In this document: piece after piece, positions 38,059-44,610 of the stretch
Layout: every line of letters starts with the position of its first letter
Position numbering within the stretch: the stretch's first letter is position 1
DNA from: a virus
DNA: 64,000 nucleotides
IMG/VR virus record: IMGVR_UViG_3300014039_000006
Direction: 5' to 3' (one strand)
Made by a program: the position numbers and the translations under genes
Notes under the pieces: generated by a model
Told to the model about the DNA's origin: nothing
Database searches by the model: none
What the model saw: the letters and a program-made list of their open reading frames with translations, nothing else

Positions 38059-38074
38059 TCCTTTCCCCTTCTAG

Positions 38075-38137
38075 CCTGTCATCATCGGAGCCGGGCGGCT
38101 GTCCCACGGCTGACGCTCCGGAGAGCGTTTCGACTAT
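38075..38137 (-). ncRNA. hammerhead-like motif HH-1 (type II topology)
   Basis: UAGUC-GAAAC-GCUC-uccg-GAGC-GUC|AGCCG-N13-CGGCU-CCGAUGA-U-GAC. Stems covary with HH-2. Confidence 0.45.
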
Positions 38138-41361: not shown

Positions 41362-41520
41362 TTATTTCCCAATGCTTTTTAAATAAGCATCCAGGGATTT
41401 ATCCAATATTTTACTCATTGGTATGCCGCTTTCGTCGGAATACTCCTTTAATCTCCGGTGTATTTCCTTGTCAATAGAACTTGAAATAAAAATACGGTTT
41501 TTCAATCTTCTGTCAGCCAT
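41362..41520 (-). CDS. ribbon-helix-helix small regulator
   Basis: 52 aa: MADRRLKNRIFISSSIDKEIHRRLKEYSDESGIPMSKILDKSLDAYLKSIGK. Divergent from the resolvase. Not in the ORF track. Confidence 0.5.
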   Translation of the reverse strand: MADRRLKNRIFISSSIDKEIHRRLKEYSDESGIPMSKILDKSLDAYLKSIGK

Positions 41521-41648
41521 GTAATCACCTCCTTTGGTGGATTATACAATAAAATTCCATATAGTTCAATAAGCTACTTGAAATTTTATCTAAAATGCTA
41601 TATACTTATAGAAAAGTACATAAGCATTTATAAAAAGGAGATTGGACT

Positions 41649-42224
41649 ATGAAAATTGGGTATGTGAGAGTTTCAACAGTGGATCAGAATGAAGATCGAC
41701 AGATTGAGGGACTTGAAAAGTATGGAATTGAAAAATGGTACATGGAGAAGGTTTCCGGGAAAAACATGAACCGGGAGCAGCTACAGGAAATGCTTTCTTG
41801 CATAAAAGAAGGAGATACCGTTTATGTACATGATTTTAGCCGATTGGCAAGAAGTACCAAGGATTTATTGGAAATCGTAGAAGTCCTTAATAAAAAGGGC
41901 GTTCACCTTGTAAGTAACAAGGAAAACATTGATACGTCTACTCCACAAGGAAAATTGATGGTAACAATGCTTGCTGCAATTTACGAGTTTGAGAGAACAA
42001 ATATGCTTGAACGTCAGGCAGAGGGAATTGAAATTGCAAAGAGGAAAAAGGTTTACAAGGGAAGAAAGCCGAAAGATATTTCCAGAGAGCAGATAATTGA
42101 CGGCCTTAAGAGATACAAAGACGGACTTGTTACGAAAAAGGATCTCGCAAAGGAAATCGGGGTTTCGATTCCGACGCTTAACAAGAACTTTGACGAATTT
42201 GATCTTGGGAACAGTAAAGAATGA
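41649..42224 (+). CDS. small serine recombinase (resolvase/invertase family)
   Basis: MKIGYVRVSTVDQNEDRQ. 191 aa with a C-terminal HTH. Confidence 0.9.
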   Translation: MKIGYVRVSTVDQNEDRQIEGLEKYGIEKWYMEKVSGKNMNREQLQEMLSCIKEGDTVYVHDFSRLARSTKDLLEIVEVLNKKGVHLVSNKENIDTSTPQGKLMVTMLAAIYEFERTNMLERQAEGIEIAKRKKVYKGRKPKDISREQIIDGLKRYKDGLVTKKDLAKEIGVSIPTLNKNFDEFDLGNSKE

Positions 42225-42367
42225 AAATTTTTGGAAAAGAAATAAACGACGAATGTAAAAATTGCGGAAAGATTCTTGAATGCGAATTATTCCGTCAAGG
42301 TCACGGGATTGGCGTTGAGCGTACCAATGTATCAGAAATGGTACGATGCCAATTAGACCACTATCAA

Positions 42368-42440
42368 AGGGATATCGCCAAGCGGTAACGGCACAGGATT
42401 TTGATTCCTGTATTCGTGGGTTCGAATCCCACTATCCCCG
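42368..42440 (+). tRNA. tRNA-Gln (anticodon UUG)
   Basis: Manual cloverleaf. D arm GCC(A)/GGC, anticodon stem CAGGA/UCCUG with loop UUUUGAU, T arm GUGGG-UUCGAAU-CCCAC. The acceptor has an A1-C72 mismatch. No encoded CCA. Confidence 0.75.
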
Positions 42441-42639
42441 TTTGGGTTACTTTTTCATAGCCCATGACATTTTCTCCTTTATACGTAAACCCACTAGCGG
42501 AAAGCTGTTAAGGACCGTCACAAGGTCCGGTGGGATTCTATGGATGGTGCATTCCATAACCGTAAAGACGGACACCAAAGAAATCCTTTCTAAGTGTTAA
42601 ATGTACAGTGCCGGTTCTGATGCACGGAGCCGGTGCGCA

Positions 42640-42717
42640 TGGATAGTATGCAAACGGGTAAGCAAAAGGTCGAAAGACCGGATCAGCATTGCAAGGTTCA
42701 AGTCCTTGCCTATCCAC
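42640..42717 (+). ncRNA. tRNA-like RNA lacking an anticodon loop
   Basis: 7-bp acceptor UGGAUAG/CUAUCCA, a D-arm-like UGC-AAACGGGUAA-GCA and T arm (G)CAAGG-UUCAAGU-CCUUG(C). The anticodon arm is replaced by GGUC-GAAA-GACC. Confidence 0.55.
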
Positions 42718-42887
42718 TCTCCGTAAGGCCATACGGAGCCTAGGAGCCGGTCATAGATATGTTGCAAGCAGAAATGACGGTGAAAAACTTATATTCGTGG
42801 TGAGAAGCTAAAACGTGAGACAACATAGCCGTTTGGTAGCGAATAGCATTCTTGAAGTTTCAAATGGGTTTATAGGGGATGCCATAA

Positions 42888-43003
42888 CGGATAGTAGCTC
42901 AATAGGAAGAGCAGTATTTGAAAAATGTGTTAACAAAACACTAACAGCAATTACTTTTTTCAGGGGCGCATACGTGTTGGCGGTTCGAGTCCGTCCTATC
43001 CGA
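42888..43003 (+). ncRNA. tRNA-like RNA with about 60-nt extended arm in place of the anticodon stem-loop
   Basis: Acceptor CGGAUAG/CUAUCCG, D arm GCUC-AAUAGGAA-GAGC, T arm GGCGG-UUCGAGU-CCGUC. The arm has helices GUAU/AUAC, UGAAAAA/UUUUUCA and GUGUU/AACAC. Confidence 0.55.
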
Positions 43004-43149
43004 TTTACAACGCACACAGCAATTACAATGGACAAAACAGATAATTTTGAAACCAATAAATGCGTTGTTTTTATACAACCCTAACAGCAAACAATAATTA
43101 TTTTTCTTTGGGCAAAAATGAAAAACAAGGGTTGGGAAAGGTGAAAAAA

Positions 43150-44610
43150 ATGGAATTTTCAGAAGCAATGAGAAATGACGGGAAGTTTACAAGAACGGAA
43201 AATGGTGCTGTTGCGTTAAACACAACAGGAAATTCGTGCCTTGATCTTTTTGGAACGATAGGTTCATTAAGATGCGCTGATAAAGTAAGGATTGAAACCA
43301 TGTTTGCGGAAGCATACAAAGAAAATCCATTACTTGCTACAAAATGCGTATTTTACGCAAGAGACATTAGATGCGGTCTTGGCGAGAGAAAAACATTTAG
43401 AACACTTATTAAGTATATGGCAGAAAATCACCCAGAATCTATTCGCAATAATATTGATTTGATTGGCTTTTACGGAAGATATGATGATCTTTATTCTCTT
43501 GTCGGAACGCAACTTGAAGATGAAATGTTTTCTTCGATGAAAGATCAGTTTGAAAAAGATCTGGACTCCATGGAAAAAGGTTGCGCAGTTTCGCTTCTTG
43601 GAAAATGGATTAAAACAAGCGCAACCAGAAACAAAGACGGTAAGCAACTTGGAATTTTGACGGCTGAAAAATTAGGATATGAGAACAAAGAATTTAATAT
43701 TCTTGTTCGTAAATTACGGTCTTATATAGGGATTGTTGAAAGGGATATGTCTGCCGGAAACTGGGATAAAATTAAATATCCGGAAGTACCTAGCCGTGCA
43801 ATGATGCTTTATAGAAAAGCGTTTGAAAGACACGATGCAGAAAGATTTTCGGATTTTACAAGAAAAGCGTTATCTGGCGAAGAAAAAATCAATTCTTCTA
43901 CGCTTTACCCATATGATATTGTCGAAAAAATATTATATAGTGGAAAAAATAGTGAAGTATTAGAAGCACAATGGAAGCAACTTCCTGACTACGTGGAAAA
44001 AGGAACAAATGCTTTGGTTATGGCAGATGTATCGGGATCCATGTATGGAAGACCAATGGCAACATCAATTGGCCTTGCAATTTACTTTGCAGAGAGAAAT
44101 GTCGGTGCATATCATAATCTGTTTATGACATTTTCCAGTATGCCAAAAACAGTTGCCTTAAAGGGAGAAACGCTTGAACAGAAGATATGCAATGTGAGCA
44201 GAGCGAATTGGAGCATGAATACAGATCTTCAAGCGGCTTTCTATAAAGTCCTTGAAATTGCGAAAAAAAACAATGTTTCACGGGAAGAAATGCCAAAATC
44301 TATTATTGTTATTTCTGATATGGAAATTGATGCTTGCGGAGACGAAGACTGGTCTTTCTATGACAATACGGCAAAGAAATTTAATGAGTCCGGTTATGAT
44401 ATTCCAAACATTATTTTTTGGAATGTAAACAGCAGAAGCAATGTATTTCACGCAGATGCGGACAGAAAAGGAGTTCAAATTTGCAGCGGACAGTCAACCA
44501 CAGTCTTTAAGCAATTGATTGGTTGCATTGGCTTTACTCCGGTTGAAATGATGAAAAAAGTTTTATGCTCTGAAAGATACGAGAATATTTCGATAGTGGG
44601 GAAAGCCTAG
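43150..44610 (+). CDS. DUF2828-like protein: N-terminal helical-repeat domain + C-terminal vWA/MIDAS (Ro60/TROVE-like architecture)
   Basis: FTRTENGAVALNTTGNSCLDLFG near the N-terminus. MIDAS VMADVSGSM. 486 aa from ATG 43150. Confidence 0.7.
   Translation: MEFSEAMRNDGKFTRTENGAVALNTTGNSCLDLFGTIGSLRCADKVRIETMFAEAYKENPLLATKCVFYARDIRCGLGERKTFRTLIKYMAENHPESIRNNIDLIGFYGRYDDLYSLVGTQLEDEMFSSMKDQFEKDLDSMEKGCAVSLLGKWIKTSATRNKDGKQLGILTAEKLGYENKEFNILVRKLRSYIGIVERDMSAGNWDKIKYPEVPSRAMMLYRKAFERHDAERFSDFTRKALSGEEKINSSTLYPYDIVEKILYSGKNSEVLEAQWKQLPDYVEKGTNALVMADVSGSMYGRPMATSIGLAIYFAERNVGAYHNLFMTFSSMPKTVALKGETLEQKICNVSRANWSMNTDLQAAFYKVLEIAKKNNVSREEMPKSIIVISDMEIDACGDEDWSFYDNTAKKFNESGYDIPNIIFWNVNSRSNVFHADADRKGVQICSGQSTTVFKQLIGCIGFTPVEMMKKVLCSERYENISIVGKA

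What the first reader, a model, noticed from the sequence alone, without database searches (positions are those of the whole stretch)
42888..43003. tRNA-like RNA carrying a 60-nt helical arm where the anticodon loop should be
The acceptor (CGGAUAG/CUAUCCG), D arm (GCUC/GAGC), T arm and 5-nt variable loop are all perfect. Between positions 26 and 44 sits a 60-nt insert that folds into stacked helices (GUAU/AUAC, UGAAAAA/UUUUUCA, GUGUU/AACAC). The insert is too short for a group I intron. The motif ACAGCAAUUAC in the arm recurs at 43016-43026, just downstream. A long protein-binding stem fused to a tRNA body is the Y-RNA design principle.
Basis: seen in the sequence. Interest (0 to 1): 0.7.

Follow-up and report, generated by a model that had tools for sequence, protein, structure and literature searches.

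The report
tRNA-shaped partner RNA of phage Ro60-like protein
The 116-base feature is a real, conserved tRNA-derived RNA whose anticodon arm carries a hairpin-plus-ACAGCAA module, repeated twice more just upstream of a Ro60-like phage gene, which points to an undescribed relative of the Ro60/Y-RNA particles found widely in phages.

Summary
Window 42888-43003(+) scores as tRNA in Rfam (41.6 bits) with a 54-nt insertion in the anticodon arm, and ACAGCAA recurs at 43016 and 43084.

The next gene (43150-44610) is a DUF2828+vWA protein. Its AlphaFold model matches Ro60 structures over its full length.

In about 160 related phage and prophage loci (Lachnospiraceae), the same 100-130 nt tRNA-like RNAs lie beside this gene in one to four copies, mostly upstream. 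All carry one module: a covarying helix followed by ACAGCAA.

The module has two topologies:
- a hairpin inserted in the 5' strand of a tRNA anticodon stem (this finding);
- a closing stem around anticodon-arm-like or T-arm-like hairpins, the YrlA layout (window 43007-68 and 43076-134, the latter abutting the Shine-Dalgarno sequence).

The helix-plus-ACAGCAA elements also flank DUF2828 genes in Myco-, Listeria, Enterococcus, Bacillus and Felix-O1-like phages. Rfam YrlA hits some below threshold.

Best reading: a Y-RNA-like tRNA mimic that binds the Ro60-like protein. It is not an intron, because excision does not restore an anticodon loop in this copy. Binding and expression are untested. This is a new variant of a known kind.

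The parts
42888..43003 (+). tRNA-derived RNA with the module in its anticodon arm ('type 1' element). This is the finding.
   Evidence: Rfam tRNA 41.6 bits. Own model R1 128.6 bits, and R1 finds homologues in nearly all related loci.
42888..42894 (+). Acceptor stem 5' strand (CGGAUAG). It pairs with 42996-43002.
   Evidence: All 7 pairs covary in the family.
42897..42912 (+). D arm (GCUC-AAUAGGAA-GAGC).
42914..42917 (+). Remnant of the anticodon stem, 5' strand (GUAU). It pairs with AUAC at 42970-42973.
   Evidence: Sequence. In relatives the same positions flank the insert and complete a 5-bp anticodon stem.
42919..42925 (+). Possible helix P2, 5' strand (UGAAAAA), pairing with 42956-42962. 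The A-rich stretch precedes the hairpin, as in the rest of the family.
   Evidence: Complementarity only. The MFE prefers another pairing. P2-like pairs occur in some subfamilies. A-rich linkers are listed.
42927..42941 (+). Module hairpin P3 (GUGUU-AACAA-AACAC).
   Evidence: In the MFE. Module model R2 gives 26.3 bits, E=1e-4, the best hit in the window.
42944..42950 (+). Conserved single-stranded motif ACAGCAA, copy 1.
   Evidence: C, G and C of the motif are present in 140 of 141 unique elements.
42956..42962 (+). Possible helix P2, 3' strand (UUUUUCA).
42963..42969 (+). G-rich bulge GGGGCGC, the degenerate remnant of the anticodon loop.
   Evidence: Excision gives GUAU-C AGGGGCG C-AUAC with no U33 and a C.C mismatch. 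Close relatives give GUAUG CAAGGUG CAUAC.
42970..42973 (+). Remnant of the anticodon stem, 3' strand (AUAC).
42979..42995 (+). T arm (GGCGG-UUCGAGU-CCGUC).
42996..43003 (+). Acceptor stem 3' strand plus discriminator A. No CCA is encoded.
43007..43068 (+). 'Type 2' Y-like element A. Closing helix ACAACGCA(43007-14)/UGCGUUGU(43061-68), then ACAGCAA, an inner UGG/CCA helix and an anticodon-arm-like hairpin.
   Evidence: Model R3, seeded without this clade, gives 46.4 bits, E=5e-9, with all pairs standard. The MFE reproduces the helices.
43016..43022 (+).
43033..43049 (+). Anticodon-arm-like hairpin CAAAA-CAGAUAA-UUUUG inside element A.
   Evidence: Relatives have CUGCUAA or CUGUUAA loops here.
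43076..43134 (+). 'Type 2' element B in the mRNA leader. Closing helix CAACCCU(43076-82)/AGGGUUG(43128-34) with ACAGCAA.
   Evidence: MFE. Weak model scores: R2 14.3 bits, R3 14.4 bits. Position and motif are conserved in loci with 55% protein identity.
43084..43090 (+). ACAGCAA, copy 3.
43135..43141 (+). Shine-Dalgarno-like GGAAAGG, directly after the 3' strand of element B.
   Evidence: Sequence. The same juxtaposition (..UCCUG/UCAUG then GAAAGGAG) is seen in many loci.
43150..44610 (+). Gene for a Ro60-like protein (DUF2828 + DUF7788/vWA, 486 aa).
   Evidence: Pfam. PHROG 850 'RNA-binding protein'. AlphaFold model plus Foldseek gives Ro60/TROVE as the top hits.
42640..42717 (+). Possible further tRNA-like element: acceptor UGGAUAG/CUAUCCA, a T arm, and GGUC-GAAA-GACC + GG + AUCAGCA in place of an anticodon arm.
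   Evidence: Sequence and fold only. Not called by Rfam, ARAGORN, R1 or R2.
42368..42440 (+). Ordinary tRNA-Gln(UUG) at the head of the cluster. This is a neighbour, not part of the module system.
   Evidence: ARAGORN and Rfam, 59 bits.

Best explanation
The 116-nt feature is a non-decoding, tRNA-derived RNA. It serves as a scaffold for a conserved protein-binding module.

The module is a short helix with two single strands at its base: an A-rich strand on the 5' side and (U)A-ACAGCAA on the 3' side. It sits where the anticodon arm should be.

Two further copies of the module follow within 150 nt, and in these the helix closes the element:
- the first encloses an anticodon-arm mimic;
- the second lies in the mRNA leader and ends at the ribosome-binding site of the next gene.

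That gene encodes a Ro60-like ring protein with a vWA/MIDAS domain.

The most likely mechanism, all inferred:
1. The cluster is transcribed with, or just ahead of, the gene.
2. RNase P and RNase Z cut at the tRNA-like body. This releases the 116-nt RNA and sets the 5' end of the next element, which starts 3 nt later.
3. The Ro60-like protein binds the helix+ACAGCAA module.
4. The result is a phage Ro60/Y-RNA-type particle whose RNA displays tRNA parts to host tRNA-handling or RNA-degrading factors.
5. Binding to the leader copy feeds back on the protein's own translation.

Shown here: the RNA family, its structure, its two topologies, its linkage to the gene family, and the Ro60-like predicted fold.
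For: tRNA body:
- It is real and covaries.

Module:
- Its hairpin covaries in 6 of 7 pairs, with 102 double-change cells.
- The motif is nearly invariant.
- ACAGCAA occurs 415 times on the gene strand against 16 on the other strand in 142 distinct upstream regions.
- 318 of 345 distinct motif contexts carry the type-1 or type-2 helix signature. A helix of at least 8 bp flanks 64% of motif sites against 16% of random sites.
- The same helix is used in two strand orders. That fits a trans-acting binder better than splicing.
- In this clade both closing-helix copies read ACAAC/GUUGU where other clades have GUGAC/GUCAU, with compensating partner changes; the hairpin copy is also divergent (AACAC in place of GUGANNN).

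Neighbouring protein:
- AlphaFold model, pLDDT 76.9. Its best Foldseek matches in PDB are Ro60/TROVE entries over about 500 aligned columns, with E of 1e-6 to 8e-4.
- The MIDAS DxSxS motif is invariant.
- Mycobacteriophage homologues are annotated 'Ro-like RNA binding protein'.

Distant phages:
- Helix+ACAGCAA elements flank the gene, on its strand, in Myco-, Bacillus, Listeria, Enterococcus and Felix-O1-like phages.
- Some enclose a T arm, a closed acceptor-like stem and a D arm. These hit Rfam YrlA at 47.8 bits, E=4e-8.

tRNA mimicry in the enclosed segments:
- 44% of type-2 inner segments contain an anticodon-arm-like hairpin, against 3.5% of shuffles. 30% contain a T-loop motif.

Processing:
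- The elements occur in tandem arrays with 2-5 nt spacers, as in tRNA clusters.

Literature:
- In the E. coli phage Bas63, the Ro60-like protein gp130 lies directly upstream of the tRNA genes. The authors suggest that some of those 'tRNAs' are Y RNAs (10.1101/2024.10.10.617714).
Against: - There is no expression, end-mapping or binding data.
- Ro60 likeness rests on a predicted fold. TM-scores are 0.54-0.59 for the phage entries and 0.39-0.42 for D. radiodurans and human Ro60.
- Pfam TROVE does not hit, and sequence profiles do not reach Ro60 in PDB.
- The motif differs from the GNCGAA motif of YrlA. Rfam YrlA gives no hit in the window even at E<=10.
- The thermodynamic signal is modest: z=-3.0 for the tRNA-like RNA and -0.2 for the leader.
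- 75 of 141 relatives would give a canonical tRNA if the insert were removed. Excision in those copies therefore cannot be excluded.
- Leader copy B scores weakly with both models.
- The seed alignments for the helix counts were chosen by pairing, which inflates the percentage paired.
Confidence: 0.6

Rival explanations
1. It is an intron-containing tRNA. The 27-57 nt insert is a new kind of small intron that is cut out, perhaps with help from the Ro60-like protein and an RNA ligase, to give a working tRNA.
For: - Excising one contiguous segment restores a 5-bp stem and a 7-nt loop with U33 and R37 in 75 of 141 unique relatives. The rate in shuffles is 2.4%.
- The restored anticodons are ordinary, for example UAC, UGG, GAA and GGU.
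- A gene annotated as a tRNA-splicing ligase lies 1.3 kb from the DUF2828 gene in a Listeria phage.
Against: - In the window copy and its clade, excision does not give a canonical anticodon loop.
- The insert sits in the stem strand at varying positions (after nucleotide 26 to 33), not at 37/38.
- By inspection I saw no bulge-helix-bulge at the junctions. The insert is far too short for a group I or group II intron, and Rfam reports no intron family here.
- The same module occurs where there are no exons to join, in type 2 elements and the mRNA leader.
- Near-identical bodies differ in the anticodon (GGU/GAU, GCU/ACU). Some anticodons (GCU, GGA, UGA) sit in bodies that lack the long variable arm of tRNA-Ser.
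- No insert-free alleles were found in the loci.
Confidence: 0.1
2. The modules are cis-acting signals for the DUF2828 mRNA only. They act as processing sites, stabilising structures or operators for translational control. The tRNA-like bodies are just RNase P/Z punctuation, and no stable RNP with a trans function exists.
For: - The last module abuts the Shine-Dalgarno sequence in many loci.
- The elements are on the gene's strand. No + strand terminator-like site was found between them and the gene.
- The tRNA-like 3' end lies 3 nt before the next element.
Against: - One to four tRNA-like copies, plus further closing-stem elements, is more than regulation of one gene needs.
- In mycobacteriophage and Felix-O1-like phages the elements lie downstream of the gene.
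- The enclosed anticodon-arm and T-arm mimics are conserved. A mere operator would have no need for them.
Confidence: 0.15
3. The RNAs are tRNA decoys or sponges aimed at a host factor, such as an anticodon nuclease or a tRNA-modifying enzyme. The ACAGCAA module binds that host factor or another phage protein, not the DUF2828 protein. The linkage to the gene would then be a shared pathway and not direct binding.
For: - Intact-looking anticodon loops are kept next to the module in both topologies. Triplets turn over quickly between close relatives.
- DUF2828 genes sit in or beside tRNA clusters in several phage groups.
- A Ro60-like protein in the E. coli phage Bas63, gp130, is reported to counter the Ppl defence system.
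Against: - The module follows the DUF2828 gene across phages of unrelated hosts (Actinobacteria, Firmicutes, Enterobacteria). A host-specific ligand does not explain this well.
- The helix variant tracks the protein clade.
Confidence: 0.1
4. It is a decaying pseudo-tRNA with a chance insertion and has no function.
For: ARAGORN does not call it, and its anticodon loop is degenerate.
Against: - Homologues exist in about 160 loci, with covariation in every helix and a nearly invariant motif.
- The motif enrichment is strand-specific.
Confidence: 0.03

Closest known systems
YrlA, the bacterial and phage Y RNA-like RNAs (Rfam RF02553; Chen et al. 2014, PMC4201824)
   Same: - Encoded next to, and on the strand of, a Ro60-type gene.
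- Built from tRNA parts.
- A helix plus a short conserved single-stranded motif near its base is the presumed protein site.
- Often present in several copies.
- Type 2 relatives in Enterococcus, Myco- and Felix-O1-like phages have the T arm, closed acceptor-like stem and D arm layout. They hit the YrlA model at 34-48 bits.
   Different: - The protein partner is DUF2828, not a Pfam TROVE protein.
- The motif is ACAGCAA, not GNCGAAN0-1G.
- No hit reaches the gathering score of 69, and there is none at all in the window.
- In the finding itself the topology is inverted: free acceptor ends, with the module as a closed hairpin branching from the anticodon stem.
Metazoan and Deinococcus Y RNAs with Ro60, and the Thermus phage phiLo Ro60 with Yrl1/Yrl2 (PMC12135203)
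   Same: - A Ro60-type ring protein with a vWA/MIDAS domain, plus small RNAs encoded beside it.
- The phiLo protein structures (9kop, 9l5y) are the best structural matches of the window protein.
   Different: - Those RNAs are stem-bulge-stem molecules with a CGAA-type motif and free ends in the binding stem.
- Their binding and PNPase recruitment were shown experimentally. Nothing has been shown here.
Intron-containing tRNAs (bacterial group I introns; archaeal bulge-helix-bulge introns at non-canonical positions)
   Same: An insertion interrupts the anticodon arm of an otherwise normal tRNA gene. Many relatives would be canonical tRNAs after removal.
   Different: - The insert is 27-57 nt with no ribozyme core and no bulge-helix-bulge seen by inspection.
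- The hosts are bacteria.
- The insert carries a module that also occurs outside tRNAs.
tRNA-like processing handles (MALAT1 mascRNA, tRNA-linked small RNAs) and tmRNA
   Same: A tRNA-shaped domain with free acceptor ends could recruit RNase P and RNase Z and define the ends of neighbouring RNAs. This rests on my own knowledge of those systems.
   Different: Those systems have no Ro60-type partner and no ACAGCAA module. Processing is only inferred here.

Membership tests
tRNA (Rfam RF00005) | Cloverleaf body: 7-bp acceptor stem, D arm, and T arm with a GTTCRANYC loop. Score at or above the gathering threshold. | tested here: met
   41.6 bits against a threshold of 29, model positions 1-71. The helices covary in relatives.
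tRNA (Rfam RF00005) | Anticodon arm of 5 bp with a 7-nt loop carrying U33 and a purine at 37. | tested here: not met
   About 60 nt occupy this place. No single excision gives a canonical loop in the window copy; the best is GUAU-C AGGGGCG C-AUAC. ARAGORN makes no call.
YrlA / bacterial Y RNA (Rfam RF02553) | Match to the family covariance model at its gathering score (69 bits). | tested here: not met
   No YrlA hit in 41500-43400 even at E<=10. The type 2 relatives in Enterococcus phage reach 47.8 and 34.4 bits.
YrlA / bacterial Y RNA (Rfam RF02553) | The 5' and 3' ends pair to form the protein-binding stem. The tRNA-like domain is apical, with the acceptor-like stem closed by a loop. | tested here: not met
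   The finding has free acceptor ends, and the module is a closed hairpin. Neighbouring elements at 43007-68 and 43076-134, and many relatives, do have the closing-stem layout.
YrlA / bacterial Y RNA (Rfam RF02553) | Conserved GNCGAAN0-1G motif near the 5' side of the binding stem. | tested here: not met
   The conserved motif is ACAGCAA. In the Enterococcus phage it lies just 5' of the part aligned to YrlA, where YrlA has GGCGAAUG.
YrlA / bacterial Y RNA (Rfam RF02553) | Encoded within a few kb of a Ro60 orthologue and on the same strand. | tested here: inconclusive
   It ends 146 nt upstream of, and on the same strand as, a protein with a Ro60-like predicted fold. That protein is DUF2828, not Pfam TROVE.
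YrlA / bacterial Y RNA (Rfam RF02553) | Bound by the Ro60 protein in vivo. | not testable with these tools
   This needs immunoprecipitation or EMSA.
Ro60 / TROVE proteins (the neighbouring gene) | Ring of HEAT-like repeats followed by a vWA domain with a MIDAS motif. | tested here: met
   AlphaFold model, pLDDT 76.9. Foldseek top five hits are Ro60/TROVE entries with 502-525 aligned columns. D293-x-S295-x-S297 is invariant across distant homologues. This is a predicted structure only.
Ro60 / TROVE proteins (the neighbouring gene) | Sequence-level match to TROVE or Ro60. | tested here: not met
   Pfam gives DUF2828, DUF7788 and a weak VWA_2 hit only. A sequence search and two profile searches of PDB reach only a vWA protein.
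Group I intron in tRNA | Catalytic core of roughly 200 nt or more, inserted in the anticodon loop. | tested here: not met
   The insert is about 43 nt, and no intron family appears in the Rfam scans.
Archaeal-type tRNA intron | Bulge-helix-bulge motif at the exon-intron junctions. | tested here: not met
   By inspection of the parsed inserts, where a junction helix exists it pairs directly at both boundaries without 3-nt bulges. Relatives come from Lachnospiraceae genomes.

The most novel reading that the evidence does not exclude
Helix+ACAGCAA RNAs are the previously unidentified RNA partners of the whole DUF2828 branch of Ro60-like proteins. That branch is present in at least 691 sequenced phages, including Felix-O1-like, Listeria P100-type, Enterococcus and mycobacteriophages.

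The tRNA-embedded version found here keeps real-looking anticodon arms because the particle presents them as decoys or tethered substrates to host tRNA-targeting or nucleic-acid-degrading defences. That would make this a general phage counter-defence RNP.
Probability: 0.25. Interest if true: 0.9.

Novelty: new variant of a known kind. Interest (0 to 1): 0.74.

Why it matters
- DUF2828 proteins are common in phages: 691 records in the phage collection, and more than 7,900 relatives in the protein database. I found no described RNA ligand for them.
- A defined module (helix + ACAGCAA) makes the question 'what does this Ro60 paralogue bind and do?' directly testable. Tractable systems are available, such as Felix-O1-like coliphages and Listeria and Enterococcus phages.
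- It extends the Y-RNA/tRNA-mimic principle to a second protein family and a second motif.
- It adds a topology not described before: the binding module grafted into the anticodon stem of an otherwise complete tRNA.
- Practically, these elements are likely to be missed by tRNA finders (ARAGORN missed this one) or labelled as pseudo-tRNAs.

Tried and rejected
- **Sequence homology of the protein to solved structures.** Single-sequence and two profile searches reached only a vWA protein, never Ro60. NCBIfam and PADLOC gave nothing.
- **Rfam at a permissive threshold over the locus.** It gave no family other than tRNA.
- **Literature.** Searches for DUF2828, for phage Ro60 with tRNA-like RNAs, and for small tRNA insertions found no description of these RNAs.
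- **Pseudoknot idea.** A pseudoknot between the hairpin loop (UGU) and ACA of the motif was rejected. The 2-3 nt linker cannot span a 6-7 bp helix.
- **Codon-like pairing idea.** In one subfamily the insert has a segment (UUGUAA) complementary to the anticodon loop. This is not general and was dropped.
- **Insert-free alleles.** A search for 'empty site' alleles of the interrupted tRNAs in all fetched loci found none.
- **Promoter and terminator scan.** Counts were no higher than in shuffled sequence.
- **Bas63 record.** I tried to locate the GenBank record of phage Bas63 to check that its gp130 belongs to this protein family. The accession guesses failed. The equivalence is therefore inferred from my recollection that Bas63 is a Felixounavirus and from the gene's presence in 251 Felix-O1-like phage records.
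- **Second tRNA-like element.** The element at 42640-42717 could not be confirmed as a member by any model.
Full report
**1. The observation**

- Rfam's tRNA model matches it end to end at 41.6 bits (gathering score 29). It treats 54 nt in the anticodon arm as an insertion.
- ARAGORN calls only the ordinary tRNA-Gln(UUG) at 42368-42440.
- Acceptor, D and T helices are intact.

- GUGUU/AACAC appears in the minimum-free-energy fold.
The MFE pairs GUA.UUG with CAA.UAC instead.
- The fold energy of the whole RNA is moderately better than shuffles (z=-3.0).

ACAGCAAUUAC does recur at 43016-43026, and ACAGCAA occurs a third time at 43084-43090.

**2. Context**

The region 42441-43149 has no convincing ORF.

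The next gene (ATG at 43150, preceded by GGAAAGG) encodes a 486-aa protein.
- Pfam: DUF2828 + DUF7788, with a weak VWA_2 hit.
- PHROG 850: 'RNA-binding protein'.
- Surroundings are phage: a serine recombinase, a large terminase and an SPP1-type portal.

An AlphaFold model built on 16 homologues (pLDDT 76.9) has five best PDB matches, all Ro60/TROVE structures aligned over about 500 columns:
- the Thermus phage phiLo Ro60, three hits from two entries (9kop and both chains of 9l5y; E=1e-6 to 9e-5, TM 0.44-0.59);
- Deinococcus Rsr (2nvo);
- human Ro60 (9nen).

Everything after these matches only the vWA domain.

Other evidence on the protein:
- The MIDAS motif DxSxS is invariant in distant homologues.
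- Sequence methods do not reach Ro60, so the likeness is structural and predicted.
- Mycobacteriophage homologues (35% identity, same Pfam domains) are annotated 'Ro-like RNA binding protein'.

**3. Relatives of the RNA**

I fetched loci through the protein: 80 viral contigs and 80 genome contigs. The genome contigs are nearly all Lachnospiraceae and related Clostridia.

A covariance model of the tRNA body alone (R1) finds one to four elements of about 100-130 nt beside the gene in nearly every locus. Most lie upstream. Many are in tandem with 2-5 nt spacers. In 76 distinct sequences the body helices are 98.2% paired, and 13 of 16 pairs show double changes.

Different tRNA bodies carry the same arm content:
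- an A-rich linker;
- a hairpin, usually NNNUCAU-GUUY-GUGANNN or AAAUCCU-GNNN-GGGAUUU;
- 0-4 nt, usually two;
- then ACAGCAA.

The C, G and C of the motif are present in 140 of 141 unique elements. In 57 hairpins of equal length, 6 of 7 pairs show double changes, and the closing U.G pair is invariant. That seed was chosen for full pairing, so only the covariation counts as evidence, not the percentage paired.

**4. What the 'arm' really is**

In many relatives the module is an insert of 27-57 nt in the 5' strand of an otherwise normal anticodon stem, after nucleotide 26 to 33.
- Removing it restores a 5-bp stem and a 7-nt loop with U33 and R37 in 75 of 141 unique elements. The rate in shuffled controls is 2.4%.
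- Examples: GUA|insert|CC AUUACAA GGUAC (Val-UAC), GCAG|insert|G CUUGGGG CCUGC (Pro-UGG), and AG|insert|GGA CUGAAAA UCCCU (Phe-GAA).
- The window copy and its clade do not restore a canonical loop. The window gives GUAU-C AGGGGCG C-AUAC, and close relatives give GUAUG CAAGGUG CAUAC.
- Near-identical bodies differ in the triplet (GGU/GAU, GCU/ACU). Some triplets do not fit their body type.
- No insert-free alleles were found.

**5. The second topology**

ACAGCAA occurs 415 times on the gene strand and 16 times on the other strand in 142 distinct upstream regions. Inside the gene the counts are 10 and 7. Counts are highest 50-200 nt before the start codon, in three adjacent 50-nt bins.

There the helix strands come in the opposite order: 5'-(U)GUGANNN-(N0-2)-ACAGCAA-[25-80 nt]-NNNUCAUG-3'. 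The same helix now closes the element.
- Of 345 distinct motif contexts, 125 carry the hairpin signature and 193 the closing-stem signature.
- A helix of at least 8 bp flanks 64% of motif sites against 16% of random sites in the same regions.
- The enclosed segment contains an anticodon-arm-like hairpin in 44% of cases against 3.5% of shuffles, although about a quarter of those loops read UUCRANU and so are T arms. Common true anticodon-type loops are CUGUUAA, CUGCUAA and CUUUUAA.
- A T-loop motif is present in 30%.
- The last element usually ends directly at the Shine-Dalgarno sequence.

A model of the short closing-stem class (R3) was seeded without the window's clade. On its seed alignment 98.4% of cells are paired and 7 of 14 pairs show double changes. 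It matches window 43007-43068 at 46.4 bits, E=5e-9, with every pair standard.

The leader element 43076-43134 is weak by both models. It is nevertheless conserved in position and motif in loci with 55% protein identity.

In this clade both closing-helix copies read ACAAC/GUUGU where other clades have GUGAC/GUCAU, with compensating changes in the partner strand. The hairpin copy is divergent too: it reads AACAC where other clades have GUGANNN.

**6. Distant phages**

The protein family occurs in 691 phage records. In five of six distant loci examined, helix+ACAGCAA elements lie in the non-coding gap next to the gene, on its strand.

| Phage (locus) | Motif copies |
|---|---|
| Mycobacteriophage Nicholasp3 (L170) | two, plus one ACAGUAA |
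| Bacillus phage Tsamsa (L171) | two, plus one ACAGCGA |
| Listeria phage LMTA-57 (L172) | three |
| Salmonella phage Mushroom, a Felixounavirus (L173) | four |
| Enterococcus phage Ben (L174) | three, plus one ACAGCGA |
| Metagenomic fragment (L175) | none |

- In three of the five phages (Nicholasp3, Mushroom and Ben), elements enclose a T arm, a closed acceptor-like stem-loop and a D arm. This is the YrlA layout described by Chen et al. 2014 (PMC4201824).
- Rfam YrlA hits the Enterococcus elements at 47.8 and 34.4 bits, below the gathering score of 69. ACAGCGA lies just 5' of the aligned part, where YrlA has its GNCGAA motif.
- The gene sits beside tRNA clusters in Tsamsa and Mushroom. In Listeria it is near a gene annotated as a tRNA-splicing ligase.
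- I could not retrieve the Bas63 record, so its membership of this protein family is inferred.

**7. Interpretation**

Shown here:
- a conserved, structured RNA family built on tRNA bodies;
- a helix+ACAGCAA module used in two topologies;
- tight, strand-specific linkage to DUF2828 genes across very different phages;
- a Ro60-like predicted fold for that protein.

Inferred:
- The protein binds the module.
- The tRNA body provides RNase P/Z processing and stability.
- The particle works like a Ro60/Y-RNA RNP that displays tRNA parts.
- The leader copy allows autoregulation.

The two topologies and the presence of the module outside any tRNA argue against an intron. So do the degenerate loop in this copy and the absence of any known intron signature. 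Excision in those relatives that would yield canonical tRNAs cannot be excluded without RNA data.

**8. Comparison and novelty**

The closest known system is YrlA with Ro60. The element works like it in design, but it fails the family's tests on model score, motif and topology. The protein fails sequence-level TROVE membership.

I therefore rate it a new variant of a known kind: a second Ro60-like protein family with its own Y-like RNAs. It includes a form not described before, in which the binding module is grafted into the anticodon stem of a complete tRNA.

I found no description of these RNAs in Rfam 15 or in the searched literature.

Noticed in passing
window 38070-38135 (-): Type II hammerhead ribozyme match above Rfam's gathering score (43.1 bits against 37, E=1.7e-5), full length, in an intergenic stretch of the phage.
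   Followed up: no
window 42640-42717 (+): A second tRNA-like sequence: acceptor UGGAUAG/CUAUCCA and a good T arm. The anticodon arm is replaced by GGUC-GAAA-GACC followed by GG-AUCAGCA, which resembles a minimal version of the module. No model or tRNA finder calls it.
   Followed up: partly
window 42609-42637 (+): A 12-bp hairpin (GUGCCGGUUCUG-AUGCA-CGGAGCCGGUGC) between tRNA-Gln and the tRNA-like elements, seen in the fold of the whole spacer. Its role is unknown.
   Followed up: no
L172 964-1515 (Listeria phage LMTA-57): A ROOL RNA-like match (88.5 bits, just under the gathering score of 99.1, E=6e-17). It lies about 1 kb upstream of the DUF2828 gene, with tRNAs and a gene annotated as a tRNA-splicing ligase in the same 6.5 kb.
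   Followed up: no
L173 4225-5100 (Salmonella phage Mushroom, Felixounavirus): The four helix+ACAGCAA elements lie on the strand of the DUF2828 gene, in the spacers between tRNA genes that are annotated on the opposite strand. The last one encloses a T arm, a closed acceptor-like stem and a D arm.
   Followed up: partly
type 2 elements in L006-L164, e.g. L040, L054, L087: The hairpin enclosed by the short closing-stem elements has anticodon-type loops. The commonest are CUGUUAA (18), CUGCUAA (8) and CUUUUAA (7), which would read as anticodons GUU, GCU and UUU. It is flanked by a small UGG/CCA helix.
   Followed up: partly
L171 1-1876 (Bacillus phage Tsamsa): Seventeen tRNA genes, two of them annotated as 83-nt pseudo 'tRNA-OTHER', lie directly upstream of the DUF2828 gene. 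A 600-nt gap follows that holds the ACAGCAA elements.
   Followed up: no
window 43007-43134, L001, L002: This clade's closing-helix copies use ACAAC.../...GUUGU where most relatives have GUGAC.../...GUCAU. The change is concerted across the closing-helix copies in one genome, and the hairpin copy is divergent as well.
   Followed up: partly
literature hits for DUF2828: All five papers that mention DUF2828 concern eukaryotes (four on plants, one on a tardigrade genome). The protein family may therefore extend beyond phages and bacteria, and it is not known whether any such homologue has an RNA partner.
   Followed up: no
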